Shown here: positions 28,211-59,054 of the stretch, piece by piece | Layout: each line of letters starts with the position of its first letter | Position numbering within the stretch: position 1 is the stretch's first letter | NCBI GenBank assembly: GCA_964535655.1 | Contig: CAZHTP010000002.1 | Coordinates: 154,054 to 218,053 of the forward strand | DNA: 64,000 nucleotides | Direction of reading: 5' to 3' | Origin: an uncultured Gammaproteobacteria bacterium | Lineage (GTDB): Bacteria; Patescibacteriota; Microgenomatia; JALYQM01 | The notes under the pieces: model-generated | The model's database searches: none | The model's input: the letters and a program-made list of their open reading frames with translations, nothing else | What the model was told of the DNA's origin: nothing | Made by a program: the position numbers and the translations under genes

Positions 28211-28986
28211 AGTGACGCACTTTTTATTATTTCGCTAAAGTGTCGCACTTTATTCAAGTCACTTTCACTATAGCTAAATGATGCAACATCTTCAGCAAGT
28301 TTTTCAAAATCGAGAGTCTCACAAAAACTGATAGTTTTAGCCCTCAATTCGTTTGAGGTACCAACTCCAATTTTGTAATTCAAATAGTCATAATCAGGCT
28401 TAATCGAAAAAGACAATAAATATGCAATGTCAAAAAAATCACGACCTAGTACGCGAGGTCTATTAAATAACGCATTAAACTTCTGTGCAAGTAAAATATT
28501 TTTTGGCGTAACACGTACAGTAGGATTTAACCCGAACCGCTGCAAAGATTGCACGTCAGGTTGGTAAGTATATCCATGTGCCGTGCTATCAATTTGGATT
28601 AAAATTTTCTCAGATTCTAAAGGTGAAATCTTTTGCTCAAAGAGAATATGAGGAAGGCGAACATTACACCGAAATGCCCCCTTATGAACAAAACTAGTTT
28701 CTACTTCATAACCTTCTTCTTCAAGTCGCAACTTCACAGTGCTTCCAACCGAAAGAAATTCTTCTTCTGTTAGGCCAAAATTATCAAAATCTAAGTCTTC
28801 GGAAAAACGGGGGCAACCATGAATAATTCTCAAGGCAGTTCCGCCTAAAAAAGACAATTTAAAGGCGAATTCCGATGCAAAAATCCCATCAAGCATCAGA
28901 CATTGCAAATATTCTCTCAAAATCTGTCGCTTATCTCGTGTTTGAGAAGGAGGATAATATGATTGGATTGTTTCAATAGTGAACAT
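28207..28986 (-). CDS. AbiEii/AbiGii-family nucleotidyltransferase toxin (type IV TA)
   Basis: FLGGTALRIIHGCPRFSEDLDFD matches the AbiEii core. Confidence 0.7.
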   Translation of the reverse strand: MFTIETIQSYYPPSQTRDKRQILREYLQCLMLDGIFASEFAFKLSFLGGTALRIIHGCPRFSEDLDFDNFGLTEEEFLSVGSTVKLRLEEEGYEVETSFVHKGAFRCNVRLPHILFEQKISPLESEKILIQIDSTAHGYTYQPDVQSLQRFGLNPTVRVTPKNILLAQKFNALFNRPRVLGRDFFDIAYLLSFSIKPDYDYLNYKIGVGTSNELRAKTISFCETLDFEKLAEDVASFSYSESDLNKVRHFSEIIKSASL

Positions 28987-29611
28987 ATGTTGGACTCCTT
29001 AAGTAGTTAAGTAATAAGCGGGCGCGCCTTTCTAACGCACCATTTTCAGAAATGGTAATGTACTTCCAAAAAAGAGGTTCATCAAAATGAGCAAAAAGCT
29101 CTTCAGAATTTATACGCAGTTCGTGCATATCACCTTCGGTTTTTAACTCTGGATGAAAATAGAGGTAATCTACCAAGGCCTTTTCCTTCGTAGCTATAAA
29201 AAATGACATAGATCCATACGCAACGCTGGTATACCCTACCATCATAGTTGGCTTGATTGACTTAAAAAGGAACTCTCCAAGGGGTGTTTTATATACTGCT
29301 GTCTTTCTTGTACTAATGCTTGTTGTACGAAAAACTCCTTCTGAGATGAGATTGTAGTAGCGTAGTGCCGATTCAAGAGATATATAAGAAGGTGAATAGA
29401 GGTTCTTAGCCACTGCAAAAAGGCCATAGGAATCAAGCGCACTCGCCAAGTCCGCAAAGACATAATAACCACGCACCAATCTTTGAATATAACCTATCCT
29501 TTCCCACCGCCTAAGCTGGGTTGTAGCGATATTCGGTTCAAAAAACCGTATATCATGTGGGGTAAAGACGAGCTTATTCTTAAGCGATTGTTGTAATTCT
29601 CGGTACTTCAT
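28973..29611 (-). CDS. AbiEi-family antitoxin/transcriptional regulator
   Basis: N-terminal wHTH (MKYRELQQSLK...LRRWERIGYIQRLVRGYYVF). 14-nt overlap with the AbiEii gene. Start moved to the MKY codon. Confidence 0.6.
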   Translation of the reverse strand: MKYRELQQSLKNKLVFTPHDIRFFEPNIATTQLRRWERIGYIQRLVRGYYVFADLASALDSYGLFAVAKNLYSPSYISLESALRYYNLISEGVFRTTSISTRKTAVYKTPLGEFLFKSIKPTMMVGYTSVAYGSMSFFIATKEKALVDYLYFHPELKTEGDMHELRINSEELFAHFDEPLFWKYITISENGALERRARLLLNYLRSPTYVHY

Positions 29612-30090
29612 ATGTTTCTCCAAAGATACATTTATGTATTCTTTAAGAAATAAAATAACAGAAATGAGAGAGAAAGGCAAGGGGTAATAGATGAGCCTAG
29701 ATATCCTAATAGCGATAATGAGTGAGCGTGATATGTAGAATAAAGAAGACCTATAGCTATTGACAAAGGGATATAGGTGTGTTAACATCACGATACCTCA
29801 ATAGGAGGCAACCTCAATTCGAGGCTGTTCTACTTGAGAGGCCCGAAGCCTTAAAACTTCGGTAGCACATTCAAAAGAGGCAGATTACTCCTAATCTTAG
29901 GAACGGGAAGTAGTCCAACGAAGTCTCTTGTCGAATAAACATCTAACTCCGCCACTATGTACCGCCACCTAAACCTAGGGGGAAGGTAATTGGCCGCACA
30001 TTTTTAACCCAATTTATTGGGCTACTTTGTGTAGGTATTTTCTTCTACTTTTCTCAAAATATTGTTGATTGTGCTCCCTTTTCCCGTCCG

Positions 30091-30178
30091 CATTCCGTGA
30101 CGGATTGTAGCCCCGGTTGTCTACCTTGTATGCCTCACAGCATCAAGTAGCTACTGAGTCTACAATCCGTCACGCGAA
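30091..30178. promoter_or_regulatory. Long inverted repeat (15-bp perfect arms, about 50-nt loop) just upstream of the secreted mini-protein gene
   Basis: cgtgacggattgtag (30096-30110) pairs with ctacaatccgtcacg (30160-30174). The loop contains the palindrome agtagctact. Confidence 0.5.
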
Positions 30179-30235
30179 TAAGAAAGGTTGGCAAAGAGCC
30201 CACCATTCTCGTGGCGAGAAGTAGGAGACTATCAC

Positions 30236-30535
30236 ATGTCTATCAGTAAGCTCAGCTTGATCATCATCACTATGCTCGCCTTGACCATTACTCCGGCCCA
30301 CGCGGCCGAACAAAATGTCAACTCTAGCGTCGAGGTCTACCTCGAGTGTTGGGACGGCAACGGGTGTCTAGCAACCTTCCCAACCGGGAACGCGTGGAAC
30401 ATCTACCGCTGGTACGGACCAGAGCTAATCTCTGGCCCGGCCAGAATTACTCGCGACGTGTTTGTCATTCCTGGCTCTGTCCGGACATATAACGGCGATA
30501 CGGGATTTGCATACGCTGCTCCTCCTTCTTGGTAG
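30236..30535 (+). CDS. Small secreted protein (signal peptide, two Cys), high-GC cassette
   Basis: AGGAGA RBS. Signal peptide MSISKLSLIIITMLALTITPAHA with AHA-AEQ cleavage. About 55% GC against about 38% around it. Confidence 0.5.
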   Translation: MSISKLSLIIITMLALTITPAHAAEQNVNSSVEVYLECWDGNGCLATFPTGNAWNIYRWYGPELISGPARITRDVFVIPGSVRTYNGDTGFAYAAPPSW

Positions 30536-30965
30536 AGAATTAGGCTGAGCGCCGGTAGCATGCTTCACAGCATGGCTGAGTTAACCGCATCGATTGATGT
30601 AGGAACTAAAAAACCGGCGCAAAGCCAAAAACAATCAAACAAAAAAAGAGAAAGAAAGGAGAAAAGAAAATAATGATAAAAAGAAAGAAAAGTTATTCAA
30701 GTCGCTTGAGACCTGAAATATACTTCCTATTTCCACTTACCATTCATTACAATTCCCATTCTGCCTCCCTGTTTATAGAGTTAAACAAATCTCTATCTGA
30801 AGATGACAAAACGAAGTCGAAAACAGGAAGTTAAAATTAAATACACACCACACGAGTTCTGGTAAATCATCTTAACTTAGTATACAATATCATAAAACTT
30901 ACATACGAATGCCCTCGTATGTTTTTTTGCGCTTATAATGGGTAATTGCACAAGGAGTACACTAT

Positions 30966-48198: not shown

Positions 48199-49923
48199 AT
48201 GAAGATTAGGCACTTAAAGGTTCAAAACTTCCGAGGTATTAAAAGCCTTGACTGGAATATAACTAACGATTTAGTCTGTTTGCTTGGCGCAGGTGATAGT
48301 ACTAAATCAACAATATTGCTTTCAATAGAGTATGCGTTATACCCTTCGTATGGTCTATATTTATGTGATACTGATTTCTATAACCAAGATCTTAATAATC
48401 CTATTATCATAGAAGTAACACTTAGCGATATCCCTGACACTTTTTTAAATGAAAACAAATATGGACTTAGGCTGCGAGGATGGAATGCTGTTGATGGTAT
48501 TCATGACGAACCATTTACAGGTGACGAACAAGCACTAACTATACAGCTTTCAGTTGATGATACCTTAGAGCCGCACTGGGTTGTAATTACTCAAAGACAT
48601 CAGGAAGGACAACCTATATCTCATATGGATCGAGACAGATTAGGAGTGTCGCCCATAGGGGCATTTTTAGAAAAAGATCTATCTTGGGCGAAAGGATCTC
48701 CATTATTTAGATTAACAGGGAGTTTAAATGAAGCAAACCAAATTATGCTAAACGCAAGACGTAATATGCGTCAAAGTATAGTTAGTGATGAGAGTACAAA
48801 GGTATGGATAGACCAGTGCACGCAGTTAGCCAAGAATGCTGAGAACATAGGGGTAAAAAGTAAAAATGTTTTGTTACCAGCCATGGATTTGAAATCAAAT
48901 TCAAGCCACAACTCATATTTGTCATTGTATGATGGAGATATTCCCACTAGGCAGTATGGATTAGGTAGTAAACGATTATTGACTATGTCAATCCAACAGC
49001 AAAGTGTGGCTAACGGTGCGGTGATTCTTGTGGACGAAATAGAACATGGTCTCGAGCCTCATAGACTAAGGCATCTTGTACGGTATTTTAGACAAGCTTT
49101 ATCCATTGAAGACACTATACGTATCGGTCAAGTAATTTTTACAACACATTCAAGTATCAGTATTGAGGAATGCAAAGCAGACGAGCTTAACTGTGTGCTG
49201 AGTAGAAATGGAACAATTGAAGTAGTATCAGTTGACGTAACCCTGCAAGGCCTAGCGCGAAGCTGTCCTGAAGCATTCCTTGGGAAAAAGATAATCGTAG
49301 GAGAAGGAAAAACTGAATTTGGAGTATGTAGAGGATTAAACCAGGAATGGGATTCATGTTTTGGCCTATTAGGAGTAGTACCTGTAAATGGCGTCGGATA
49401 TACGAACGCACCTAAGATAGCAATCCAACTCAAAAAGCTTGGATACGACGTAGCCTTGATGATTGATAGCGATCAATTAATGAGCCAAGAGCATCGAAAT
49501 GAAATCGGGCAACTTGGAGTATGCCTACTAGAATGGGACGGTGGAACTAGCATAGAAGAAAGATTTTTCTTTGACATGCCATGGCCAACTCTTAAAGAAG
49601 AACTACAGGCATTAATAAGCTATTACTCGAATAATCCGTCTCATATCTTTGAACCTATCATACAAAAATTAGGAGTTAAAGCTTCACTCACAGATTGGGG
49701 AGAAGATATTGATAGCTGGTTGTCCAAAGGGATAACAGAAGTACAGTTGAGAACTGCTGCAGGGAAGGCTGCACATAGTTCAGCATGGTACAAGGATCGA
49801 GTAGGAATAGATTTAAGTCAACCCTTAGGCCAGAGAATCGCTAACGCACTAGAGAATATGAAGGGGACAAATACGTATGTTAATCTTAAAAAGCTAAAAC
49901 AATGGATACACGATGGATTATGA
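48199..49923 (+). CDS. gajA: OLD-family ABC ATPase plus TOPRIM nuclease, Gabija GajA-like
   Basis: MKIRHLKVQNFRGIKSL (OLD/AAA_15 N-terminus), a degenerate P-loop LLGAGDSTKST, an ABC signature region, and C-terminal TOPRIM VGEGKTE plus MIDSDQ (DxD). Confidence 0.65.
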   Translation: MKIRHLKVQNFRGIKSLDWNITNDLVCLLGAGDSTKSTILLSIEYALYPSYGLYLCDTDFYNQDLNNPIIIEVTLSDIPDTFLNENKYGLRLRGWNAVDGIHDEPFTGDEQALTIQLSVDDTLEPHWVVITQRHQEGQPISHMDRDRLGVSPIGAFLEKDLSWAKGSPLFRLTGSLNEANQIMLNARRNMRQSIVSDESTKVWIDQCTQLAKNAENIGVKSKNVLLPAMDLKSNSSHNSYLSLYDGDIPTRQYGLGSKRLLTMSIQQQSVANGAVILVDEIEHGLEPHRLRHLVRYFRQALSIEDTIRIGQVIFTTHSSISIEECKADELNCVLSRNGTIEVVSVDVTLQGLARSCPEAFLGKKIIVGEGKTEFGVCRGLNQEWDSCFGLLGVVPVNGVGYTNAPKIAIQLKKLGYDVALMIDSDQLMSQEHRNEIGQLGVCLLEWDGGTSIEERFFFDMPWPTLKEELQALISYYSNNPSHIFEPIIQKLGVKASLTDWGEDIDSWLSKGITEVQLRTAAGKAAHSSAWYKDRVGIDLSQPLGQRIANALENMKGTNTYVNLKKLKQWIHDGL

Positions 49924-51337
49924 TATCGACTCTATTATCAACGCAAGGCGCGGGGCAATAATTGCTGCTGCGGGGTGTGGAAAAACGCAAGCAATAGTAA
50001 AAGCTGTCTCAAAATCACCAGGGCTCCAATTGATCTTAACTCATACTCATGCCGGCGTTGATTCTTTGGTTGCAAGATTCAAACGCTTGGGTGTTAGTAC
50101 AAAAAAGTATCATGTCGAGACCATTGCCAGCTTTGCCATGCGATATACAGAAGCATATCCTGTTTTAAGTGGTTTGATCGAACATTCTTCCGAGAACGAT
50201 ATCTGGGCTGATCGATATGAATCGATGTTCCAATTGTTAAGCTATTCTGTAATTCATAAGATAATCAAAGAGACTTATTCTGGTATGTACGTGGATGAAT
50301 ACCAAGATTGTAGTTTAAAGCAGCACCTGATTTGCACTAAATTAGCGGATCTTATCCCATGTAGGGTTTTTGGCGACCCGTTGCAAAGTATCTTTACATT
50401 TGGAGGACAGCAAGTGGTAAGTTGGGATGAGCATGTATTCCCTAGTTTTGAGCGTCTTCCCGAGCTAAATATTCCATGGAGATGGTATAAATCAAACAAG
50501 ACGCTTGATAGGGAGTTAGGTGATTGGTTACAAACATGTAGGAAACTCTTAATAAGTGGATCACCAATAGATTTAAGAGATGCTCCGAAAGATGCAGTTA
50601 GCTGGGTTGAGCCTGACTCAGATGGATTCCGTACAATCCACAATCATTGCTACCGACTTTTAAAAGCATCTGGCTCTGTTATGGTAATAATGGATCAAGC
50701 TAACCAGTGTCACAGTTTGGCTCGTAACTTGGGAGGTGCGTATCAATCAATGGAAGAGATGGATTCAAAAGATCTACGTTATTTCGCTGCTCAGCTTATG
50801 AGTGCGAGTAGAGTGATGAGAGTGATTGCTATTCTTGAGTTCGCAAAAAGATGTATGACAGAATCGACCGCCATTACAGAGATACAGAAGGCATTTGAGC
50901 TTCAACGACTAGAAAAAATAAAAAGTAAATACCCTCAGTTAATATTTATTTTAGAATCGGCTACGAACAATGACACCTTACGAGACTTAGAAATATCACT
51001 GGACGCGATACAGACGTATTTAAAAGGAAAAATATTTCGTAGGGAACTATGGAGCGAGATGAAGAGAGCTTTGATTTATTCAGCTCAGAATAATGTATCT
51101 TTAATCGATAGCGTTCAAACTGTACGCAATAGAACAAGGATAACAGGAAGATACATCAACCCTAAAATGATTTCACGAACTCTTTTGGTAAAGGGATTGG
51201 AGTTTGATCACGTCCTAATATCTAGTGCAGACAAAATGACTAAAGAAAATCTGTATGTTGCCCTTACTAGACCAACAAGTACGCTAACTATCCTAACCAG
51301 ATCACCTATTCTTCAAGGTATTGATATCAAAACATAA
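49913..51337 (+). CDS. gajB: UvrD-like helicase, Gabija GajB-like
   Basis: Walker A IIAAAGCGKTQAI, C-terminal LYVALTRPTS (UvrD_C). 11-nt overlap with gajA. Confidence 0.65.
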   Translation: MDYDIDSIINARRGAIIAAAGCGKTQAIVKAVSKSPGLQLILTHTHAGVDSLVARFKRLGVSTKKYHVETIASFAMRYTEAYPVLSGLIEHSSENDIWADRYESMFQLLSYSVIHKIIKETYSGMYVDEYQDCSLKQHLICTKLADLIPCRVFGDPLQSIFTFGGQQVVSWDEHVFPSFERLPELNIPWRWYKSNKTLDRELGDWLQTCRKLLISGSPIDLRDAPKDAVSWVEPDSDGFRTIHNHCYRLLKASGSVMVIMDQANQCHSLARNLGGAYQSMEEMDSKDLRYFAAQLMSASRVMRVIAILEFAKRCMTESTAITEIQKAFELQRLEKIKSKYPQLIFILESATNNDTLRDLEISLDAIQTYLKGKIFRRELWSEMKRALIYSAQNNVSLIDSVQTVRNRTRITGRYINPKMISRTLLVKGLEFDHVLISSADKMTKENLYVALTRPTSTLTILTRSPILQGIDIKT

Positions 51338-51425: not shown

Positions 51426-53048
51426 TTAACAAGTCATACCCCCGGCAAAAGTACTGTTACCACTTTGAAAAGTCAGTAGTGGTAAAACAATCGATTGTTC
51501 ATCACCTGCTAGATACTCATCAACAGGAATAACTTGGCCATCCTCCCACACTTCACCTTTCAGATATATACCAAAGTTATCTTTGAGAAATGCTCTGTAG
51601 GCTCGTGTAGCTGTGTGTACTTCATCTTTTGGAATGGAAAGTAGGAATCCATCATGGCAATCGCAGACTACTGGGAAGGTGACTTTTTCCTTTATCAGTG
51701 AGGTAATAATCCACTGTTCAAGTGATTGCATCTGCCATGCGGCATACATAGCTTGTGGGTTCTTTGCGTTGAACTTTTCATACAACTCAGAATAAATATC
51801 TCCACGGAAACCTCGTTTGTATTGCTCCTCCATCTGAAAACTAAGTCCGAGCAGATTCTTCTCTCCCACATGATTGATGATTGTCTCAGGTTTATGAATC
51901 TGTTGCCACTCTTTTCGCTTGGGGTAGAGGTCTTCTAAAAAGCAGATAAGTTTTTCGAGGTGATCTTTGGTGAACAACGCATCGCCCATATTATCAGCAA
52001 CCGTGGCGACAATCCCTTGCTTGTTACACATAAATAGCATGGCATACACGGCTTTTTTTAAATGAGCTTTGGAAACATTAATACCACTCTCTTGCATAGT
52101 TTTCCAGATACTTTTACCTTGTTCAAGAATGTTTGTGAGTTTCGTGTCAGCTGCGTTTGCATTAAGTGCCTTTGCTCCAAGCATCAATTGGCATGACTCT
52201 AGATCAAAATCAATCAATACATCAGTAGGATTGAGTGGTTTGAGGATCATTCGACGTACCTCTTTGGGAATAGCTTGTAAGCCGCCAACAGTATGCCGTC
52301 TACCAGACATCTGCAAGTGAATTGCATCGTGGTGTTGCGGAGTATCTACTAAAGCAACTGTCGAGAGTCCAAATCTAATACTATCTAACCGTTCCAGTTT
52401 GTACGTCCCTTTTTCATCCATGATTAAACTTCGCGCGTCATAGATAGCGTTAACTTTTTCTACATCTATCAAAAATGTACTTTGTTTTAGCTTCTCAAAG
52501 GTTGCTTGCAGATTTGGGTGCATCCGCTTCATATTCTTACTGTTCCAACCTTCACCCAACGTGGTCCGTTTGGCAGGCTTATCACAAAAGAACCGAGGCA
52601 ACACTTTGCCATACTGTACTTCTGTCATTAAAGCGAGCTCCAGACGCTCTAGGAAGTGTTTAGTTAATCGTAGTGATCGGGCTTTTGTTTCATCTCCAAC
52701 GCACACATACTTTAAACTGTGCGAAGCTATCACCCCATGATGTATCAACGGCATCTGGTACGCTTTTTTTAATAGACTCATCAGGCGAGTGCCACGATGA
52801 AAATACTGTTCTGGCTCTTCTCCAGTAAAACGAGAGTAGAGATACGAACAACTGGTGTAGATATACCGCAACTTACGCTTAACCTTACACTCTTGCTCGT
52901 AGGCAATGGCAGTATAGGCAATCTCAAACGGGTCTGGTTTTCGATGGAGGGTTTGGGATAATAATCTGGTGATCACATCACCGTTTACAGTAGAGAGATA
53001 TTTTTCAGAAACATACTCTCTGGCACGTACAACAAGGGTTTCACCCAT
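51426..53048 (-). CDS. Stand-alone family-A DNA polymerase (palm/fingers only, no exonuclease domains)
   Basis: SGRRHTVGGLQAIPKEVRRMI (TGRLSS..PNLQNIP...RR motif), DVLIDFDLESCQLML (motif A, DYSQIELR-like), KKAVYAMLF (O-helix K..Y..F) and VVCDCHDGFLLSIP (motif C, VHDE-like). 540 aa. Confidence 0.65.
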   Translation of the reverse strand: MGETLVVRAREYVSEKYLSTVNGDVITRLLSQTLHRKPDPFEIAYTAIAYEQECKVKRKLRYIYTSCSYLYSRFTGEEPEQYFHRGTRLMSLLKKAYQMPLIHHGVIASHSLKYVCVGDETKARSLRLTKHFLERLELALMTEVQYGKVLPRFFCDKPAKRTTLGEGWNSKNMKRMHPNLQATFEKLKQSTFLIDVEKVNAIYDARSLIMDEKGTYKLERLDSIRFGLSTVALVDTPQHHDAIHLQMSGRRHTVGGLQAIPKEVRRMILKPLNPTDVLIDFDLESCQLMLGAKALNANAADTKLTNILEQGKSIWKTMQESGINVSKAHLKKAVYAMLFMCNKQGIVATVADNMGDALFTKDHLEKLICFLEDLYPKRKEWQQIHKPETIINHVGEKNLLGLSFQMEEQYKRGFRGDIYSELYEKFNAKNPQAMYAAWQMQSLEQWIITSLIKEKVTFPVVCDCHDGFLLSIPKDEVHTATRAYRAFLKDNFGIYLKGEVWEDGQVIPVDEYLAGDEQSIVLPLLTFQSGNSTFAGGMTC

Positions 53049-53481
53049 AACAACGTGTTATGGCTATTGGATAGCCCCCTTGATTCTCTCCATCATTCCA
53101 ACACTACACAACGGTTCCTTTCATCACATCACAAACAGTAATACCATCATCTAACAGTATCCTGTAGGATATGTCAAAAATACTCGTAAGACTTTGACAA
53201 TACACCTAGACTGCATTACACTGAGCTAGTTCCACACATCACAACACAAGGAGACTCCACACAATGGGGTCTTTTTTGTAACTACAAAACAACCCATAGT
53301 GCGGAGTTTGTGCGTATGCATTTAGCCCACACTTACGGCATTATCGTAGAGCACTGTTAGAATAAAGAACGGTAGGGTGTTGCTGTGGTGTTTTGTTGGG
53401 GTTGTTTCTGTTGTTGTGTTTGAGGGTGTGTTTGTTATATCAAAGTGGTTTTTTAGTTGTGGTGACAAACGTTTGTTGTAG

Positions 53482-53550
53482 TTTCGGCTTCATTTTGCCT
53501 CATCAGTACGAGAGTTAACTCGTAAACTACACAAGAGAAAACAAAAGGAC
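53482..53550. repeat. About 70-nt intergenic repeat, copy 1, containing hairpin TACGAG-agttaa-CTCGTA
   Basis: About 75% identical to copy 2 at 54697..54770. Confidence 0.55.
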
Positions 53551-53640
53551 TACTTTAACAACATTATTAAAAACAATAACGGTAAACCGCTAAGTTTCTT
53601 CTAAAGTAACTCCAGTAATGTTTTACAAGTCTACTTTCTA

Positions 53641-53682
53641 GGTAGAGCGTCAGATGTACGCTACAGAGCTTACGCTCTACCA
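53641..53682. repeat. Perfect 10-bp inverted repeat GGTAGAGCGT / ACGCTCTACC with a 22-nt loop, at the boundary of the high-GC block
   Basis: Read directly from the sequence. Confidence 0.6.
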
Positions 53683-53695
53683 TAGAAAATGTTGT

Positions 53696-54010
53696 TTAGA
53701 TTCGGCTGATTCGCTGAACTATGTAGCGAACGACCATCGTTACGCCCGCGAAGTAGATAATCCACCCGAGTGTTATCCCTATCTGGAAAATGTCTTTGTT
53801 GGGGTTGTTGACCAGATAAGGCCGAGCGAGCAGGAGCAGTCCCATAGGCAGCAGCATTATAGCTGTGATATAGCCTAGGAACAGCAGTAGATATCTCCAC
53901 GATCGTTTAACCATGACTGATCTCCACTGAATGGTGAGTGCAACTTGCACGTGCTTGCTGCACTCACCATGCCGTTGTTCGTCTATTCGTACTTGCCGCT
54001 GTTGGTCCAC
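53696..54010 (-). CDS. Small membrane protein (hypothetical, high GC)
   Basis: 104 aa with 2 TM helices. Confidence 0.35.
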   Translation of the reverse strand: MDQQRQVRIDEQRHGECSKHVQVALTIQWRSVMVKRSWRYLLLFLGYITAIMLLPMGLLLLARPYLVNNPNKDIFQIGITLGWIIYFAGVTMVVRYIVQRISRI

Positions 54011-54483
54011 GCCTTCCGGCCGGCGATGTCGTTGGCGGGCTTACCGAACCTTCTTTCGATAGGCGTCATCAGCTTCTCGATTGGTCCGATGGTGCCCCTT
54101 AGGCCGTACTGCTGATAGATCTCTAGCAGATCGGTCTGCGTGTCCACAACCTCGTCGCCAATCTCGGCGTGGTTGGCGGGTGTTCCGGCCAGCGTCCACT
54201 CTTTGCTCTCGGCATTGATCGTTATGTTGATCCTCATGCCTTGCGAACGGACGTAGACGGTGCGGTTGACGTTCTCTGTTGGGGTAAATGGCTTCGCTTC
54301 CTGTCGCTTCAGCACGATAGCTGTGATTAAGTTGACGAGGAGGATAAACTCCCACAAAATCAACCCAACCGACACGCCAGTGATGAAAGCGAGCAGGATG
54401 TGCTCACCTTGTACTAGTGTCCAGAGCAAGCTCAGAACACCAGCACCTACCGCAACGAGAATGCTCGTGCGTGGCTTCATCAT
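53983..54483 (-). CDS. Membrane-anchored hypothetical protein (high GC)
   Basis: 166 aa with N-terminal 2 TM and a soluble C-terminal domain. Confidence 0.4.
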   Translation of the reverse strand: MMKPRTSILVAVGAGVLSLLWTLVQGEHILLAFITGVSVGLILWEFILLVNLITAIVLKRQEAKPFTPTENVNRTVYVRSQGMRINITINAESKEWTLAGTPANHAEIGDEVVDTQTDLLEIYQQYGLRGTIGPIEKLMTPIERRFGKPANDIAGRKAWTNSGKYE

Positions 54484-54696
54484 GCGAACTTCTCCTATAC
54501 TATACGATTAACGCCGGACGGTTTGTGCGATATAAACTCCTTTCACTAGCTGACTGCCAAGAAAAAGAGCTAATAAATAACTCACTTTCTTAGCAGCCAA
54601 ACTAATGAAATAGACTTGTCTTTTGTTTCTCTTGTTAAAGTGCAAACATTCAAACAATAAATTCCCCACTAAAGAGGTTCATTATTTGGATGTTAG

Positions 54697-54770
54697 TTTT
54701 CGCCTTCATTTCGGCTCATCAGGTAGCGAGTCGTTTACGCTACAAACTACAAACAAGAGACAGAGGTAAA
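54697..54770. repeat. About 70-nt intergenic repeat, copy 2, containing hairpin GTAGCG-agtcgttta-CGCTAC
   Basis: The stem differs from copy 1 on both strands, which is compensatory. Confidence 0.55.
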
Positions 54771-54883
54771 GAGACGATTCGGGAACAACAAAAACAAGAT
54801 AACACCGCAAGCGGCATCACTCATTAAGGCTGCGACCTTGTCGTTTTTTCTCTCTACTTCTATCTCATGTTTGTAGTCCAAAT

Positions 54884-55219
54884 CTACTTGCGGCGGCGAA
54901 TGATGTCGACGGTGACAACGATTGCCATTACGATCACGAACACGATCAACAGCGAGATGCTGTTGACAGCGTTCACGACCAAGTGGTCGTTGGTGATCGG
55001 ATCGGGCATTGTCTTCATGCCGAAAAACACGAGCCAGTACAGCATGATCAGGACGGGCAGCGTCATGATGAACGTCACAGTGCGGGTGATGAGTAGGCCG
55101 AGTGTCGTCGATTCAGGCAAGTTGGTTGTCAGGAGATCACTCGAGTTGCTGATAGCATTGGCGATCAAGATGATGAAAGCGGTGATGGCCAGAGCGATAA
55201 GGATCGTGCGGGGTTTCAT
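54884..55219 (-). CDS. Small 3-TM membrane protein (holin-like topology, high GC)
   Basis: 111 aa with a basic C-terminus RRRK. Confidence 0.4.
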   Translation of the reverse strand: MKPRTILIALAITAFIILIANAISNSSDLLTTNLPESTTLGLLITRTVTFIMTLPVLIMLYWLVFFGMKTMPDPITNDHLVVNAVNSISLLIVFVIVMAIVVTVDIIRRRK

Positions 55220-55228
55220 TGCTTTCTC

Positions 55229-55564
55229 CTACTTGTTGTAGTTGTTGTTGACGTTCCGATTGAACACATTCCGCGATGAGAAGAACCACTTGATGAAGGC
55301 GATGAAGCCTAGGCCGACGTAGAAATCGTTGAACGGCAAGTTAACACCGGCTTCACTGGCAGCGGACTTCACAAAACCACCTATCAGCTTGATGGCGTAG
55401 AAAATGGCGACGAGAGTCTCGTGCCGATTGTTCCACACCCAAGCTAGAGAAATGAACGCAATATAGCCAGTCATGGCGATTGCGATCAGTCCAGCAATGA
55501 GCTGCTCGGGAGTGATGCCGAAGTTCCGACGAAGCCAGAAAGCGAAGTCATTCCAGTACCGCAT
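55229..55564 (-). CDS. Small membrane protein (hypothetical, high GC)
   Basis: 111 aa with 2-3 TM. Confidence 0.4.
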   Translation of the reverse strand: MRYWNDFAFWLRRNFGITPEQLIAGLIAIAMTGYIAFISLAWVWNNRHETLVAIFYAIKLIGGFVKSAASEAGVNLPFNDFYVGLGFIAFIKWFFSSRNVFNRNVNNNYNK

Positions 55565-55948
55565 GACGTTTCTCCTTGTGCATTGAGCACGACATCAGCC
55601 AGATGGCCGACGGCTTCCTTCATGGAGAGCTTCCTACTTACTTACTAAAAAATAAGCAGAAAGCTCTCTACAAAAGAGCGGAGAAATATGAGATAGTTGA
55701 GGTAGAGAAATATTCTACAGAGTTTAAGCTGTAAAACCTTTTGTTCGTCCTTTTGAGGGACTATCTGTCTCTTGTTAAGGTACTAAGCTCATTTTAAGAG
55801 CTTACGCTCAACAGAGACAGTTACGCTCGAAATTGAGCCTAGTGACTCTATGAGCGAATATTACTATAGCACATCTTTAGTAAAAATACTATAGGCTGTA
55901 TATATTGAATATGATAATTACTCAATATATGTTTATGGACTTGTGGTA

Positions 55949-56578
55949 CTATTGTGACTTCTGAGCTTCTAAACACTGGTTCTGTTCGGCACTCATATTG
56001 CTAGTGCAATTGTTCATACAAACTGAATCTCCACTGCATCCCTTATCACATTCTTGAGCTTTTCGATAGGCATTGTTCAAACAAATATCAGTGATAAGTT
56101 TCTTTGCTTGAGCGGTATCTTCTTGCAGTTTTTGTTGTTCACTGGCTTGTTTTTCCCTAGAAACTTGCTGGTCTTTTACTATAGAACGTTGATCCATGAC
56201 ACACTGTGCCTGAGAAGTATAGAACACCCACTGATTACCTATCTGGCAACAACCGCTTGTTTCGCAAACGCTTCGTCGAATCATCTTCGTTCCACCTCCA
56301 CACTCAGAACCTACTTCACAAGAGATAATAGGATCATCAGACACATTTGATTCCTTTTGAGTGCTTGTTGTCTGCTGTTGTTTGAAAGTTGGTGTTTGTG
56401 TGGAGAGTGGTTGAGGCGTTGCAATAATCGATTGTTGTATTGGTAATGGCGTTGGAAAGTGTATTGCAATGATCACATCCTTTACTAATATAGTGAGCAT
56501 GATGAGCCCAGTACATCCAATCAAGACGATAGGCCAAAAGATACGATCAACTACTGATGTTCGTTTTTTCTCACTCAT
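55949..56578 (-). CDS. Membrane-anchored Cys-rich extracytoplasmic protein
   Basis: N-terminal TM, a P/Q/T-rich linker and about 14 Cys in the C-terminal half. Confidence 0.45.
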   Translation of the reverse strand: MSEKKRTSVVDRIFWPIVLIGCTGLIMLTILVKDVIIAIHFPTPLPIQQSIIATPQPLSTQTPTFKQQQTTSTQKESNVSDDPIISCEVGSECGGGTKMIRRSVCETSGCCQIGNQWVFYTSQAQCVMDQRSIVKDQQVSREKQASEQQKLQEDTAQAKKLITDICLNNAYRKAQECDKGCSGDSVCMNNCTSNMSAEQNQCLEAQKSQ

Positions 56579-57301: not shown

Positions 57302-57487
57302 GTGTCTATCTCAGTACAGAAAGCAAAAAAGTATCTCTCAAAAAAATTTACGAATGAACAAGTACAAGCAGAAATTAACCTGTTGCAACCACTCGTTCAG
57401 CTATGTGTAACTACTGCCATATATAAAAAGCGTATTTCAAAAAACAAAACCTACGAGTACTATAATAACGATAATGAAACAACCTGA
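57302..57487 (+). CDS. Small hypothetical protein upstream of the recombinase
   Basis: 61-aa ORF overlapping the recombinase start. Confidence 0.25.
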   Translation: MSISVQKAKKYLSKKFTNEQVQAEINLLQPLVQLCVTTAIYKKRISKNKTYEYYNNDNETT

Positions 57488-58994
57488 GAGAAAAAATTGT
57501 GTCATTTATGCGCGTGTATCAACTAAAGTACAAGCTGAAGAAGGATACAGTTTAGATCAGCAAATGAAGGCCTGTGAAGAATACGCACATAAACAAGGTT
57601 GGTCTATCGGCGAAAGGTTTAGAGAAGAGGGCGAGAGTGCAAAGACGGGGAAGAGAACGAAACTAGCATTAGTGCTTGAATACTGTAGACAGAAGACAAA
57701 CAAAGTAGATGTTCTGCTGGTATGGCGCGTAGATCGATTTTTCCGCAATGTCGAAGAGCACTATATCTTCAAAGGAAAACTTAAGCAACTCAAGGTCGTG
57801 CTTAGATCTGTTACCGAACCCATTGATGATTCAATTTACGGTAAGTTTATGGAAGGAATTTTTGCATTGCTCGCTGAACTAGAAAACGGGATGAAGTCAG
57901 AGAGAACTATAGTAAACATGATTGAAAAAGCAAAAAAAGGAGAATGGCCATGGGGTGCCCCGCTTGGATACCTTAAGGGTTTTGTTGTAGATGCGGACAA
58001 AGCTCCACTCATCAAAAAGTTATTTGAAACATACGGCAACTCTAACGGTACATATTTAGTTCGAGATTTGGTACCACTCACAAAGCAATGGGGATTAAAG
58101 TCAAAGAACGGTTTAGATTTAGAACATATGGCAGTTGGACGGATATTGAAGAATCCGCTATACAAAGGATGGCTGTATAAAGAAGAATGGGAAATAGAGT
58201 GTAAGGGAACACACACGCCTCTAGTTGACGAAGCGCTCTTCGCAAAAGTTCAACAGTTGCTGCTTGCGCAAGGGCACAAACTGCAAAAAAAGCCAAAGAA
58301 CGACGAGGTGTACCCTCTGAAATCTTTGCTGAGATGTTGTTTTGAAGGGTGTGGCTCAACAATGAGGTCGCATCCTGCTTATAACAAGATAGGAAAGCTG
58401 TATGACTATTATAGTTGTAAAAAAGGGAAAGTCTCAGAAGGTCATATTAAAGTCAGCACTACCAAAGCTCATCAAGCATTTATTCAGCTTTTAAGCACTA
58501 TTACTTTCCCCGCAGAGAGGTTACAACTTTTTAAAGCCATGGTTGTCATTGAATATAACGAACAGATGAGTAGCGTTAATTCATTAATGGCAAAGCTCGA
58601 CCGTGAACTTGACTCGCTTAGAATAACGAAATCAAACATGATAAGGGAAATGTACTCAAAGCAGGATTCTTCTATTAGCCAGGATGATCTTGAAGGAGAG
58701 CTAAAAAAAATCAAGGACGATATCACAGACAGAGAAGTAGAAAGAGGTGAACTGAAGTATTCAGAACTCGAATTAGATGAAGCGATTGAGGAGTGCGTTG
58801 AGTTTTTCAATAATCCAGCCAAGCTCTGGCAACTGGCACCATACCCACATAAGGTGGCACTGCAATCAATACTTTTCCCTGAAGGGATATACACTGACAA
58901 ACAAGGAAACCTGCGAACACCACGATTTGGCGAAGTTGTAGATGGTATCAAGCAATTTGATGACTGTAAAAAACACGAGGTGCTCCCGTTGTGA
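57474..58994 (+). CDS. Large serine recombinase (integrase)
   Basis: N-terminal resolvase domain VIYARVSTKVQ (catalytic Ser) and RVDRFFRN, a recombinase domain, a Zn-ribbon YYSCKKG and a coiled coil. The last 5 codons lie inside the tRNA-Arg gene. Confidence 0.85.
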   Translation: MKQPERKNCVIYARVSTKVQAEEGYSLDQQMKACEEYAHKQGWSIGERFREEGESAKTGKRTKLALVLEYCRQKTNKVDVLLVWRVDRFFRNVEEHYIFKGKLKQLKVVLRSVTEPIDDSIYGKFMEGIFALLAELENGMKSERTIVNMIEKAKKGEWPWGAPLGYLKGFVVDADKAPLIKKLFETYGNSNGTYLVRDLVPLTKQWGLKSKNGLDLEHMAVGRILKNPLYKGWLYKEEWEIECKGTHTPLVDEALFAKVQQLLLAQGHKLQKKPKNDEVYPLKSLLRCCFEGCGSTMRSHPAYNKIGKLYDYYSCKKGKVSEGHIKVSTTKAHQAFIQLLSTITFPAERLQLFKAMVVIEYNEQMSSVNSLMAKLDRELDSLRITKSNMIREMYSKQDSSISQDDLEGELKKIKDDITDREVERGELKYSELELDEAIEECVEFFNNPAKLWQLAPYPHKVALQSILFPEGIYTDKQGNLRTPRFGEVVDGIKQFDDCKKHEVLPL

Positions 58995-59054
58995 CTCGAA
59001 CACAAGACCTACTCCTTAGAAGGGAGTTGCTCTATCCAGCTGAGCTACGGGAGC
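58981..59054 (-). tRNA. tRNA-Arg (anticodon TCT)
   Basis: Manual fold: acceptor GCTCCCG/CGGGAGC, D-arm GCTC-AGCTGGATA-GAGC, anticodon arm ACTCC-CTTCTAA-GGAGT, T-arm TTGTG-TTCGAGT-CACAA. Confidence 0.85.

What the first reader, a model, noticed from the sequence alone, without database searches (positions are those of the whole stretch)
53475..55830. Repeat family with covarying hairpins bracketing a high-GC block of four small membrane proteins
Two about 70-nt repeats (53482-53550 and 54697-54770) share about 75% identity. Each contains a 6-bp stem with different, compensatory sequences: TACGAG/CTCGTA in one and GTAGCG/CGCTAC in the other. A perfect 10-bp inverted repeat lies at 53641-53682, and a related motif family ACAAGAGACAG / TTACGCTC recurs at 54750 and 55764-55821 in both orientations. 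Covariation suggests a selected RNA structure or dyad operator. The enclosed genes (54% GC) encode only 100-170-aa membrane proteins. This resembles a holin-like or toxin-immunity cluster acquired separately.
Basis: seen in the sequence. Interest (0 to 1): 0.55.

Follow-up and report, generated by a model that had tools for sequence, protein, structure and literature searches.

The report
Hammerhead ribozymes ending imported gene cassettes
The two "covarying hairpin" repeats are self-cleaving hammerhead ribozymes on the opposite strand, each at the 3' end of a foreign, GC-rich cassette of small membrane-protein genes; the ribozyme class is well known, but the conserved cassette design gives a testable idea of what bacterial hammerheads do.

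Summary
Read on the minus (coding) strand, the repeats at 53476-53532 and 54692-54751 are complete type III hammerhead ribozymes. Twelve sibling ribozymes from other genomes and metagenomes show strong covariation in all three stems.

Each ribozyme ends a self-contained cassette. The parts, in order, are a conserved promoter, a structured leader, genes for small membrane or secreted proteins (GC3 0.60-0.80 against 0.31-0.40 in the host), a 3' UTR hairpin, a terminator-like hairpin, and the hammerhead.

The same non-coding framework with different cargo occurs at three further sites:
- a third site in this window (29750-30930);
- a MAG locus (L012);
- another recombinase-bearing element (L090), which was found through protein homology alone.

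In all five units a 5'-UTR segment pairs with the 8-16 nt directly 5' of the ribozyme, and the pairing sequences covary.

Most likely mechanism (inferred): self-cleavage sets the mRNA 3' end and separates tandem units, and the 5'-3' helix shields that end.

Hammerheads flanking gene blocks near integrases were described in 2011. The conserved framework and the closure appear to be new. The function of the cargo is unknown, and the holin or toxin reading is untested.

The parts
54692..54751 (-). HHR2, a type III hammerhead ribozyme ending unit B. Stem III is UAGUU/AACUA and stem I is GUAGCG/CGCUAC with loop UAAACGACU. The core is CUGAUGA. Stem II is GCC/GGC with loop GAAAUGAA, followed by GAAA. 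Predicted cleavage is after U54744, between 54744 and 54743.
   Evidence: Rfam RF00008 gives 21.7 bits, below the gathering score. Also supported by the descriptor, the family model R1 at 73.3 bits, E 4e-25, and a three-way junction in the MFE fold.
53476..53532 (-). HHR1, a type III hammerhead ribozyme ending unit A. Stem III is UGUAGU/ACUACA and stem I is UACGAG/CUCGUA with loop UUAACU. Stem II is GGC/GCC with loop AAAAUGAA. Predicted cleavage is between 53525 and 53524.
   Evidence: Rfam RF00008 gives 23.9 bits. Also supported by the descriptor and R1 at 68.3 bits. In the whole-unit fold, stem I and stem III pair probabilities are 0.93-0.98.
55855..55895 (-). Conserved cassette promoter of unit B: CCTATAGTATTT ... 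TGCTATAGT, with an extended -10. The inferred transcription start is near 55855.
   Evidence: It aligns with the L090 promoter (TTGACT-17-TATAGT with TG, 10/12 matches), with unit C and with L012 (alignment A3). The CCTATAGYWWTT box occurs only at units B and C in the window, against 0.1 expected.
55745..55854 (-). Structured leader of unit B. It contains the 5' strands of closure arm 1 (AACAAGAGACAGA, 55776-55764) and arm 2 (UAGUCC, 55763-55758). In unit B arm 1 can also pair locally with CUGUCUCUGUU at 55820-55810.
   Evidence: The fold has z = -5.75. The leader is about 80% identical to the L090 leader. The complement to 54764-54752 is a perfect 13 nt (I16).
55229..55564 (-). wB1: 111 aa, 2-3 hydrophobic segments, ribosome-binding site ACAAGGAGAA, GC3 0.71. 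No relative found.
   Evidence: No family hits.
54884..55219 (-). wB2: 111 aa, 3 hydrophobic segments, GC3 0.80. Its N-terminus, MKPRT.IL, resembles that of wA1.
   Evidence: (D9).
54752..54883 (-). 3' UTR of unit B. It holds arm 2' (GGACUA, 54880-54875), a terminator-like hairpin with a U-tract (54820-54790), and arm 1' (UCUGUCUCUUGUU, 54764-54752), which lies 7 nt 5' of the cleavage site.
54606..54643 (-). Unit A closure 5' strands: arm 1 (ACAAGAGAAACAAAAG, 54635-54620) and arm 2 (ACAAGUCUAU, 54619-54610).
   Evidence: The whole-unit MFE fold gives pair probabilities of 0.75-1.0. The segment is homologous to the L090 leader, 79% identity.
53983..54483 (-). wA1: 166 aa, with two transmembrane helices and a conserved C-terminal domain of about 95 aa and unknown fold. 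GC3 0.72.
   Evidence: The AF2 model has pLDDT 87 and there is no PDB fold match.
53696..53914 (-). wA2: 72 aa with 2 hydrophobic segments. It is preceded by a 25-bp intercistronic hairpin at 53926-53975.
   Evidence: (I4).
53533..53695 (-). 3' UTR of unit A. In order: the conserved hairpin GGUAGAGCGU...ACGCUCUACC (53682-53641), CUAGAAA, arm 2' (GUAGACUUGU, 53634-53625), a terminator-like hairpin with a U-tract (53592-53567), and arm 1' (CUUUUGUUUUCUCUUGU, 53547-53531), which abuts stem III.
   Evidence: It is homologous to the 3' UTRs of L012 and L090.
29750..30930 (+). Unit C, a third cassette of the same family, outside the reported region. It has a promoter at 29760-29788, a gene at 30236-30535 (99 aa, signal peptide, 54% GC), a closure helix GAGGCAGA (29877-29884) with UCUGCCUC (30760-30767), hammerhead HHR3 at 30767-30828 (variant core CUGAAGA plus an extra U; cleavage between 30774 and 30775), and a terminator at 30901-30922.
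   Evidence: R1 gives 50.8 bits, E 2e-16. Also.

Best explanation
The two repeats are type III hammerhead self-cleaving ribozymes encoded on the minus strand. Each is the last element of a self-contained, horizontally acquired expression cassette.

A cassette has these parts in order:
1. a conserved promoter (CCTATAG...TG-TATAGT);
2. a structured leader;
3. one to three GC-rich genes for small membrane or secreted proteins;
4. a 3' UTR with a conserved hairpin and a terminator-like hairpin;
5. the hammerhead.

Shown here: the ribozyme architecture and its covariation, the conservation of the non-coding framework around unrelated cargo, and a covarying helix between the leader and the 8-16 nt immediately 5' of ribozyme stem III.

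Inferred:
- Transcription that passes the weak terminator reaches the ribozyme, which cleaves itself after GUAGUU(U).
- Cleavage leaves the cassette mRNA with a defined 3' end carrying a 2',3'-cyclic phosphate.
- That end is held in a duplex with the mRNA's own 5' UTR, forming a closed-loop mRNA shielded from 3' exonucleases.
- In the tandem B-A arrangement, HHR2 also separates the two units and gives unit A a structured 5'-OH end.
- Downstream RNA is cut off from the cassette and left open to Rho, RNase J or an ordinary terminator, which insulates neighbouring genes.

What the cargo proteins do is unknown. Their setting beside Gabija and AbiE, on a serine-recombinase island, suggests accessory or conflict functions.
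For: Ribozyme identity:
- The core CUGAUGA...GAAA, three stems, A15.1-U16.1 and H17 = U are all in place in both copies.
- There are exactly 2 descriptor hits in 64 kb against 0.005 expected.
- Twelve siblings from other genomes and metagenomes were found.
- In the 14-sequence alignment, stems I and II are paired in 100% of cells, 13 of 16 pairs show changes on both sides, and 0 of 500 shuffles reach the observed score.
- The family model scores the window copies at 73.3 and 68.3 bits.

Cassette:
- L090 was found only through a 48%-identical homolog of wA1. It has a family hammerhead (53.8 bits) 3' of a 57% GC gene block in DNA of about 38% GC.
- L012 has a near-identical hammerhead, with a compensatory stem III, 3' of 56% GC membrane-protein genes in a genome of about 42% GC.
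- Unit C has the same layout.
- Leaders, promoters and 3' UTRs are homologous, while the cargo proteins are unrelated.

Closure:
- Whole-unit folds recover arm 1, and also arm 2 where it exists, with pair probabilities of 0.9-1.0 in units A, L012, L090 and C.
- Unit B has a perfect 13-nt complement.
- Cognate duplexes average -20.9 kcal/mol against -11.5 for non-cognate pairs.
- B and C differ by a compensatory change at a homologous position: GAGACAGA/UCUGUCUC against GAGGCAGA/UCUGCCUC.
- Departures from Watson-Crick pairing are G.U on the coding strand, and none is A.C.

Precedent: Perreault et al. 2011 (PMC3088659) showed in vitro and in vivo cleavage by clustered hammerheads that flank short, variable gene blocks near integrases.
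Against: - There is no transcript or cleavage data for this locus.
- The Rfam Hammerhead_3 scores are below the gathering score (23.9 and 21.7 against 48.5).
- H17 is U rather than the commoner C.
- HHR3 has a non-canonical insertion between A9 and G10.1 and may be weak or inactive.
- Tested unit by unit, the closure duplex energies are only moderately better than controls: 1/300, 15/300 and 9/300 shuffles reach them, and 3/300, 42/300 and 27/300 random genomic 22-mers.
- In unit B the closure is not in the predicted MFE fold and costs about 17 kcal/mol to enforce. Local alternative pairings there would sequester arm 1 and the 5' strand of stem III.
- Only five units from three or four independent loci are available.
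- Predictions of long-range pairing in 1-kb RNAs are unreliable.
- The protective role of the closure is inference only.
Confidence: 0.62

Rival explanations
1. The ribozyme pair makes a circular RNA. HHR2 and HHR1 release a 1219-nt RNA (54743 to 53525) with 5'-OH and 2',3'-cyclic phosphate ends. The closure helices bring the ends together, and an RtcB-type ligase or the ribozyme itself joins them. The product would be a protein-coding circular mRNA, in the manner of retrozymes or viroid-like RNAs.
For: There are two same-strand hammerheads 1219 nt apart. The end chemistry suits RtcB (established knowledge). The 5'-3' closure is present in unit A with P of about 1.0. The 3' tail GUAGUU can pair with the AACUA strand of the HHR2 body that stays at the 5' end (direct reading of the sequence).
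Against: L012, L090 and unit C have the same closure but only one ribozyme and a promoter-derived 5' end, so the closure does not need two ribozyme-made ends. The chimeric stem III is out of register by one nucleotide, leaving no H17. Perreault et al. looked for circular or spliced products from clustered bacterial hammerheads and found none. No RT or RtcB gene is seen in the island.
Confidence: 0.1
2. The closure acts as a hok-like lock on toxic small membrane proteins. As with the fbi-tac pairing of hok mRNA or the 5'-3' interaction of AapA1 mRNA, the closure would keep the mRNA stable but translationally inert until 3' processing, here by ribozyme cleavage or trimming, remodels it. The cassettes would then be toxin or abortive-infection modules.
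For: The cargo is small hydrophobic proteins. A covarying 5'-3' closure exists. The cassettes sit beside the Gabija and AbiE defence genes. The wA1 domain is elsewhere fused to caspase and PNP effector-type domains. The analogy to hok and AapA1 rests on established knowledge.
Against: The closure arms lie 110-190 nt upstream of the ribosome-binding sites and do not occlude them. The proteins are 72-166 aa with 2-3 transmembrane segments and come in multi-gene units, unlike type I toxins. Unit C encodes a secreted, non-membrane protein. No antisense RNA gene was identified. There are no toxin or holin family hits.
Confidence: 0.15
3. The repeats and inverted motifs are DNA-level elements, such as dyad operators, attC-like recombination sites, or terminal inverted repeats of a small mobile cassette, and not RNA structures.
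For: Inverted repeats flank each gene block. The cassettes occur at unrelated genomic sites, which implies some form of mobility. A serine recombinase is nearby.
Against: The invariant positions of the repeat are exactly the hammerhead catalytic core, while the stems vary freely with compensation. Helices tolerate G.U but not A.C, so they are strand-specific. The inverted arms lie inside the transcription unit, with the promoter and ribozyme outside them. Two adjacent units in one genome have different arm sequences, which is not expected for sites read by a single protein.
Confidence: 0.05
4. The hammerheads are inactive relics of an older element, and the genes end at ordinary terminators.
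For: Terminator-like hairpins with U-tracts lie about 45 nt upstream of HHR1, HHR2 and the L090 hammerhead. HHR3 has a variant core. The Rfam scores are below the gathering score.
Against: The cores of HHR1 and HHR2 are perfect. All three stems are maintained by compensatory change between copies and across 14 family members. The loops implicated in tertiary contacts are conserved. L012 and HHR2 differ by compensatory changes in stem III alone.
Confidence: 0.05

Closest known systems
Type III hammerhead ribozymes (Rfam RF00008, clan CL00010)
   Same: They share the catalytic core C3-U4-G5-A6-N7-G8-A9 and G12-A13-A14, three helices with stem III open, the A15.1-U16.1 pair, an H17 cleavage site, and hairpin loops on stems I and II available for tertiary contact.
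   Different: The window copies score below Rfam's gathering threshold. They belong to a distinct subfamily with a fixed 6-bp stem I closed by G-C, loop I U(U/A)AAC(GA)NU, a 3-bp stem II, and loop II RAAAUGAA. H17 is U in the window copies. HHR3 has U7A and an extra U before G10.1.
Clustered hammerheads flanking gene blocks in prophage-like regions (Perreault et al. 2011, PMC3088659; Agrobacterium, Azorhizobium, Clostridium scindens)
   Same: Several same-strand hammerheads lie within about 1-2 kb, flanking one or two genes whose identities vary, near an integrase gene. The proposed role is processing of polycistronic transcripts.
   Different: Those examples are mostly type II, and no common non-coding framework was reported for them. 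Here the promoter, leader, 3' UTR hairpin and a covarying 5'UTR-3'UTR helix abutting stem III are conserved across loci, and the cargo is uniformly GC-rich relative to the host. The element is absent from the IMG/VR viral contigs that were searched.
Phage morons (independent promoter-gene-terminator units of deviant composition inside prophages)
   Same: Each is a self-contained transcription unit with its own promoter and terminator and a base composition unlike its neighbours. They carry accessory cargo and sit in mobile or defence islands.
   Different: Morons are not known to share a conserved RNA framework or to end in a ribozyme.
hok/sok and AapA1/IsoA1 type I toxin mRNAs (5'-3' long-distance interaction, 3' processing)
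   Same: These are small hydrophobic proteins whose mRNA is closed by pairing of its 5' and 3' ends, with maturation at the 3' end.
   Different: Here the closure does not cover the ribosome-binding site and the 3' end is made by a ribozyme rather than by exonuclease trimming. No antisense RNA was seen, and the proteins are larger and multi-genic.
Retrozymes and viroid-like hammerhead circular RNAs
   Same: Type III hammerheads occur in direct repeats that delimit a unit of about 1 kb.
   Different: Those are eukaryotic or RNA replicons, mostly non-coding, whose repeats carry the whole ribozyme so that a functional ribozyme reforms on circularisation. Here most units have a single ribozyme, and the two-ribozyme unit would reform an out-of-register stem III.
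Synthetic ribozyme insulators (RiboJ and 3'-UTR ribozyme cassettes)
   Same: A hammerhead placed between transcription units standardises mRNA ends and uncouples neighbouring genes.
   Different: Those are engineered. This would be a natural counterpart, with an added 5'-3' closure.

Membership tests
Hammerhead ribozyme, type III | Conserved catalytic core CUGANGA ... GAAA in the correct positions | tested here: met
   HHR1 and HHR2 have CUGAUGA and GAAA exactly. These positions are invariant in all 14 family members. HHR3 has CUGAAGA, where N7 is free, plus an extra U before stem II.
Hammerhead ribozyme, type III | Three helices around the core, with stems I and II capped by loops, stem III open, an A15.1-U16.1 pair, and H17 not G | tested here: met
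   The descriptor gives stem lengths of 6/3/6 and 6/3/5 bp with H17 = U. The MFE folds give the three-way junction.
Hammerhead ribozyme, type III | Helices supported by covariation among homologs | tested here: met
   Stems I and II are 100% paired, 13 of 16 pairs change on both sides, and the covariation score is 0.70 against 0.18 in shuffles (0 of 500 reach it). Slid controls give 0.05-0.15. Caveat: the 12 siblings were chosen for having a stem I.
Hammerhead ribozyme, type III | Rfam RF00008 gathering score of 48.5 bits | tested here: not met
   The scores are 23.9 and 21.7 bits, with E 0.053 and 0.22 on a 2.8-kb search. This is a curation threshold, not a structural requirement. A subfamily model gives 68-73 bits.
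Hammerhead ribozyme, type III | Site-specific self-cleavage giving 2',3'-cyclic phosphate and 5'-OH ends | not testable with these tools
   This needs in vitro transcription or end mapping.
Clustered prophage-type hammerheads (Perreault 2011) | Two or more same-strand hammerheads flanking short gene blocks near an integrase | tested here: met
   HHR2 and HHR1 are 1219 nt apart on the coding strand of four small genes. A large serine recombinase lies at 57474-58994. L090 also carries a serine recombinase.
Phage moron | Own promoter and terminator, with composition different from neighbours | tested here: met
   Promoter matches are, terminator-like hairpins, and GC3 of 0.60-0.80 against 0.31-0.40. 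Promoter and terminator activity was not tested experimentally.
Phage moron | Located in a phage or prophage genome | tested here: not met
   No phage structural genes are in the island. There were no matches in 50,697 phage records. Four pattern scans of the IMG/VR contigs gave only chance hits.
Retrozyme / viroid-like hammerhead circular RNA | Unit bounded by two hammerheads that reform a functional ribozyme on circularisation | tested here: not met
   Only unit A has two bounding ribozymes. The chimeric stem III is out of register (direct reading of the sequence). Units C, L012 and L090 have one ribozyme each.
Type I toxin-antitoxin (hok-like) | Single small (<60 aa) hydrophobic toxin with a cis-encoded antisense RNA | tested here: not met
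   The proteins are 72-166 aa and occur in 1-3-gene units. No antisense gene was recognised, although no dedicated search was possible.
Type I toxin-antitoxin (hok-like) | 5'-3' long-distance mRNA pairing that sequesters the translation start | tested here: inconclusive
   The 5'-3' pairing is present, but it lies 110-190 nt from the ribosome-binding sites.
Holin | Match to a holin family, or a neighbouring endolysin | tested here: not met
   None of the window's cargo proteins matches any Pfam, PHROG or PADLOC holin family. One distant member of the wA1 family has a weak Phage_holin_3_6 hit at E 9.5e-4. No lysin gene is nearby.

The most novel reading that the evidence does not exclude
These cassettes may be a previously unrecognised kind of bacterial accessory-gene vehicle. 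A conserved, AT-rich RNA framework (promoter, leader, 3' UTR, hammerhead) would package interchangeable GC-rich cargo genes as closed-loop or even covalently circular mRNAs. The ribozyme-made 2',3'-cyclic phosphate end and the 5'-3' closure would make such mRNAs unusually resistant to host or phage RNases. If so, this would give bacterial hammerheads a defined biological role in defence or conflict islands.
Probability: 0.2. Interest if true: 0.8.

Novelty: new variant of a known kind. Interest (0 to 1): 0.55.

Why it matters
Apart from glmS, the biological roles of self-cleaving ribozymes in bacteria are described as "largely elusive" (Weinberg, Weinberg and Hammann 2019, PMC6765202). For clustered hammerheads near integrases, only a general mRNA-processing role has been suggested (Perreault 2011).

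This locus and its relatives place a hammerhead at a fixed position in a conserved expression cassette. It sits directly after a terminator-like hairpin and directly beside a covarying helix that ties the new 3' end to the 5' UTR. That turns a vague idea into a specific hypothesis, testable by mutagenesis: the ribozyme forms the 3' end, and the closure then stabilises and insulates the mRNA.

It also flags a pool of GC-rich ORFan membrane and secreted proteins travelling beside Gabija and AbiE defence genes. One of them carries a domain that is elsewhere fused to caspase and PNP effector-type domains.

If the ribozymes prove inactive, or the closure irrelevant, the locus is simply two more hammerheads in a mobile island.

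Tried and rejected
- Rfam at gathering score found only two tRNAs. The hammerheads appear only with the E-value threshold. The miRNA and snoRNA hits in that list are chance matches to hairpins.
- No other known ribozyme class (twister, pistol, hatchet, HDV-like) was found in 53200-56000.
- The phage database gave no DNA match.
- Viral contigs were scanned with four patterns: core plus loop II, loop I plus core, and two leader motifs. Results were 0, 54, 7 and 0 hits. Every hit lay in coding sequence with no ribozyme by descriptor or model.
- In the genome scan, the hits in L015, L017, L018 and L020 are chance matches inside coding sequence. The many Vagococcus lutrae hits belong to a different repeated element.
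- Word-index protein searches for wA1 and wB1 returned only the proteins themselves. The exhaustive search was needed to find wA1 relatives.
- More distant wA1-domain homologs (L091, L094, L095) have no hammerhead with filters off, so the ribozyme is linked to the framework and not to the protein family.
- A Foldseek search of the wA1 model against the PDB gave nothing below E 0.09.
- A conformational switch (leader hairpin against closure) was considered. The local sequestration of arm 1 is strong in unit B only and is not conserved in L090 or L012, so it is not proposed as a family feature.
- The host taxon of the window could not be established. The window's species was not among the genome-collection hits.

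Full report
**1. The observation**

- The repeats 53482-53550 and 54697-54770 align at 70% identity over 77 columns. The best ungapped core is 34 nt at 79% (D3).
- Each repeat contains a 6-bp stem, TACGAG/CTCGTA in one and GTAGCG/CGCTAC in the other.
- A perfect 10-bp inverted repeat lies at 53641-53682 and folds with z = -5.3.
- The motif AACAAGAGACAGA occurs at 54752-54764 and, inverted, at 55764-55776 (I16).
- The enclosed ORFs lie on the minus strand: 55564-55229 (111 aa), 55219-54884 (111 aa), 54483-53983 (166 aa) and 53914-53696 (72 aa). All have good Shine-Dalgarno sequences and 2-3 hydrophobic segments.
- GC3 of these genes is 0.60-0.80, against 0.31-0.40 in every flanking gene tested. 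This is the most GC-rich 700-nt stretch of a 40.0% GC window, about 4.6 SD above the mean.

**2. What the repeats are**

Read on the minus (coding) strand, both repeats contain CUGAUGAG...CGAAA. A 3-bp hairpin lies between the two core halves, and a 5-6-bp helix closes the whole. This is the type III hammerhead ribozyme.

- Rfam's Hammerhead_3 model aligns both copies end to end at 23.9 and 21.7 bits. That is below its gathering score of 48.5, which is why the default scan missed them.
- A strict descriptor requires the core, stems of at least 4/2/4 bp, U16.1, and H17 not G. It finds exactly these two sites in the 64 kb on both strands, against 0.005 per shuffled window.
- MFE folds give the three-way junction.
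- Predicted cleavage is between 54744 and 54743 for HHR2, and between 53525 and 53524 for HHR1.
- Between the two copies, stem I differs by changes on both sides at 4 of 6 pairs and stem II at 1 of 3, while the core is identical.

**3. The ribozyme family**

A pattern built from the core and loop II recovered true siblings from GTDB genomes and JGI/ENA metagenomes. The pattern also hit chance sites in coding sequence and an unrelated Vagococcus repeat.

- Fourteen sequences, including the two window copies, align without ambiguity.
- All have a 6-bp stem I with many different sequences, always closed by G-C. Loop I is U(U/A)AAC(GA)NU, stem II is 3 bp, loop II is RAAAUGAA, and stem III is variable.
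- On the hammerhead structure, 86% of cells are paired and stems I and II are 100% paired. Thirteen of 16 pairs show changes on both sides. The covariation score is 0.70, against 0.18 in shuffles (0 of 500 reach it) and 0.05-0.15 when partners are slid. The siblings were picked for having a stem I, which inflates that stem's figure, but stems II and III were not selected.
- A covariance model of the family (R1) scores the window copies at 73.3 and 68.3 bits.

**4. The ribozyme belongs to a conserved cassette**

(a) L012. This MAG contig carries a hammerhead identical to HHR2 in stems I and II and loop II, but with a compensatory stem III (CUGUU/AACAG against UAGUU/AACUA). It lies directly 3' of two small membrane-protein genes at 56% GC in a genome of about 42% GC, between housekeeping genes and upstream of rpmE-prfA.

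(b) wA1 and L090. wA1 looked like an ORFan in the word-index search. The exhaustive search found a 48%-identical full-length homolog, P0003.
- Its locus L090, with the identical L093 in a second assembly, was therefore reached without any RNA information.
- It carries a family hammerhead (53.8 bits, with a different loop II) 3' of three genes at 57% GC in DNA of about 38% GC, on an element with a large serine recombinase.

(c) Unit C. R1 also found a third hammerhead in the window at 30767-30828 (+), scoring 50.8 bits.
- It follows a single 54% GC gene for a 99-aa secreted protein and sits next to an AbiE pair.
- Its core is CUGAAGA with an extra U before stem II, so its activity is uncertain.

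(d) Non-coding homology.
- The promoter box CCTATAG(Y)..TTGAC..TG-TATAGT is shared. It gives 10/12 matches with an extended -10 in L090 and unit C, and occurs only at units B and C in the window against 0.1 expected.
- The leader of unit B is about 80% identical to that of L090 over about 100 nt.
- The leader of unit A is 79% identical to the second half of the L090 leader.
- The 3' UTR hairpin GGUAGAGCG...CGCUCUACC, followed by CUAGA and ACUUG, is shared by unit A, L012 and L090. Its differences are G.U wobbles on the coding strand.
- The cargo proteins show no similarity between units.
- More distant relatives of the wA1 domain sit in ordinary contexts without a hammerhead.

The conserved entity is therefore the RNA framework, and the cargo is interchangeable.

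**5. The 5'-3' closure**

In every unit, the 8-16 nt immediately 5' of stem III ("arm 1'") are complementary to a leader segment ("arm 1") about 40-80 nt from the inferred transcription start.

| Unit | Arm 1 (leader) | Arm 1' (before stem III) |
|---|---|---|
| B | AACAAGAGACAGA | UCUGUCUCUUGUU |
| A | ACAAGAGAAACAAAAG | CUUUUGUUUUCUCUUGU |
| L012 | CAGAGUGACAAUAG | CUAUUGUC-CUCUG |
| L090 | ACAGAGAGACAAUAG | CUGUUGUCUCUCUGU |
| C | GAGGCAGA | UCUGCCUC |

- In A, L012, L090 and, more weakly, B, a second helix ("arm 2") continues directly on the 5' strand. It pairs ACAAGU... with ...ACUUGU just after the 3' UTR hairpin. A terminator-like hairpin with a U-tract is enclosed between arm 2' and arm 1'.
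- Whole-unit folds of 1.0-1.7 kb recover these helices with pair probabilities of 0.9-1.0 in A, L012, L090 and C, with the hammerhead formed beside them.
- Cognate arm 1 duplexes average -20.9 kcal/mol against -11.5 for non-cognate pairs.
- At homologous alignment columns, B and C differ by a compensatory A-U to G-C change.
- Non-Watson-Crick positions are G.U on the coding strand and never A.C. This argues for RNA pairing on that strand and against DNA-level inverted repeats.

Caveats:
- Per-unit energy tests are only moderately significant. Against shuffles, 1/300, 15/300 and 9/300 reach the observed energy. Against random genomic 22-mers the figures are weaker: 3/300, 42/300 and 27/300.
- In unit B the closure is not in the MFE fold and costs 17 kcal/mol to enforce, because both arms have local partners.
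- Only five units are available.

**6. Mechanism**

Shown: the ribozyme architecture, the covariation, the cassette conservation and the closure complementarity.

Inferred:
- Unit B is transcribed from its own promoter.
- Polymerases that pass the weak terminator transcribe arm 1' and the hammerhead, which cleaves.
- The cassette mRNA then ends in ...arm 1'-GUAGUU(U) with a 2',3'-cyclic phosphate.
- All but 6-7 nt of that end is duplexed with the leader. This should resist 3' exonucleases and polyadenylation.
- Unit A has no recognisable copy of the conserved promoter. It is probably co-transcribed with B and released by HHR2, so its 5' end would be a 5'-OH on the folded HHR2 body.
- Downstream of HHR1 lies an approximately 100-nt C/A-rich, G-poor tract that looks like a Rho loading site.
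- Downstream of the L012 and unit C ribozymes lie intrinsic terminators.

The ribozyme would therefore also insulate neighbouring genes from read-through. This matches, and sharpens, the mRNA-processing role suggested for clustered bacterial hammerheads (PMC3088659; PMC6765202).

**7. Context and cargo**

Units A and B lie in an island of about 11 kb. It contains Gabija (GajA E 5e-155, GajB E 5e-140), a 540-aa ORFan, the two cassettes, two small genes, an XRE regulator, and a large serine recombinase abutting tRNA-Arg. The same island is on a 10-kb metagenome contig.

- None of the window's cargo proteins matches a Pfam, PHROG or PADLOC family.
- The C-terminal domain of wA1, about 95 aa, forms a small family. 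Its members are standalone, membrane-anchored, or fused to caspase or PNP-type domains.
- The wA1 model is confident (pLDDT 87) but has no PDB fold match.
- A conflict-related or accessory role is plausible but untested. The holin or toxin-immunity reading has no direct support.

**8. Comparison and novelty**

- The ribozymes are new members of a known class.
- Several hammerheads flanking short variable gene blocks near an integrase is an arrangement described in 2011.
- In the literature I could search, I did not find three things: the conserved promoter, leader and 3' UTR framework; the covarying 5'UTR-3'UTR closure abutting stem III; and the uniformly GC-rich ORFan cargo.
- The family is absent from the viral collections searched.

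I therefore rate the finding a new variant of a known kind, of moderate interest. Its main value is a concrete, testable role for a bacterial hammerhead.

Noticed in passing
window 29750-30930 (+): A third cassette of the same family lies far from the reported region. It has a promoter at 29760-29788, a 54% GC gene at 30236-30535 (99 aa, signal peptide), a hammerhead variant at 30767-30828 (CUGAAGA core plus an extra U), and a terminator at 30901-30922. It sits just upstream of the secD operon.
   Followed up: yes
window 28207-29644 (-): An AbiEii toxin (Pfam E 2e-17) and a weak AbiEi-like antitoxin lie directly next to unit C. Both cassette sites in the window therefore adjoin defence or TA genes.
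   Followed up: partly
window 48199-51337 (+): A complete Gabija system is present (GajA E 5e-155, GajB E 5e-140 in PADLOC). It is followed by a 540-aa ORFan (51426-53048, minus strand) with no family match.
   Followed up: partly
window 57474-59054: The 3' end of a large serine recombinase gene overlaps tRNA-Arg(TCT) on the opposite strand. This is probably the right end of an integrated island of about 11 kb (roughly 48.1-59.0 kb). A 10-kb metagenome contig (L001) ends at the same place.
   Followed up: partly
L004/L034, L030/L032, L035, L021: The same hammerhead subfamily occurs in Nanoarchaeota-like contigs at a fixed place in the ribosomal-protein operon, between rpoD (plus a tRNA in L004) and rpl18e. 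It lies right after a TATA-box-like AAAACTTTATAAA and has only 2-5 bp of stem III. This suggests a ribozyme-processed 5' end for the rpl18e transcript.
   Followed up: partly
L005-L019 (Vagococcus lutrae CCUG 39187): At least 12 copies of a repeated element contain CUGAUGAG-UCAAAAUGAAGU-CGAAA followed by a terminator-like hairpin and a T-run, mostly near contig ends. It could be a type I-like hammerhead with a mismatched stem II, or an unrelated repeat.
   Followed up: no
window 53194-53280 (+): A strong promoter-like site (TTGACA-17-TACACT, 10/12 matches) is followed about 30 nt later by a hairpin and a T-run. This could be a small RNA of about 50 nt or a 5-codon mini-ORF (AAGGAGA..ATGGGGTCTTTTTTGTAA). 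It is divergent from the likely promoter of the 540-aa gene.
   Followed up: no
window 53926-53975 (-): A 25-bp hairpin, 80% complementary with no loop spacer, fills the gap between wA1 and wA2, just upstream of the wA2 ribosome-binding site. It may be a processing or translational-coupling element.
   Followed up: no
window 54746-54877 (-): In unit B only, a 29-nt imperfect inverted repeat (86%) pairs the region just after the wB2 stop codon with the pre-ribozyme segment, including the 5' strand of HHR2 stem III. If it forms, it would compete with both the closure and ribozyme folding.
   Followed up: partly
P0004-P0022 (relatives of wA1 residues 70-166): A domain of about 95 aa with no Pfam match (consensus R.FV.SQLMRV.I...W.L.G.PA..P..GDE...TQ..LL.IYE.YGLY) occurs standalone, membrane-anchored, or fused to Peptidase_C14 (caspase) and PNP_UDP_1 domains. 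The AlphaFold model is confident (pLDDT 87) but has no PDB fold match.
   Followed up: partly
L090 6805-7962 (+): A second GC-rich gene (385 aa, about 55% GC, no Pfam hit) follows the L090 hammerhead. No second hammerhead was detectable after it. A G/T-rich tract and an IstB-like gene lie downstream.
   Followed up: no
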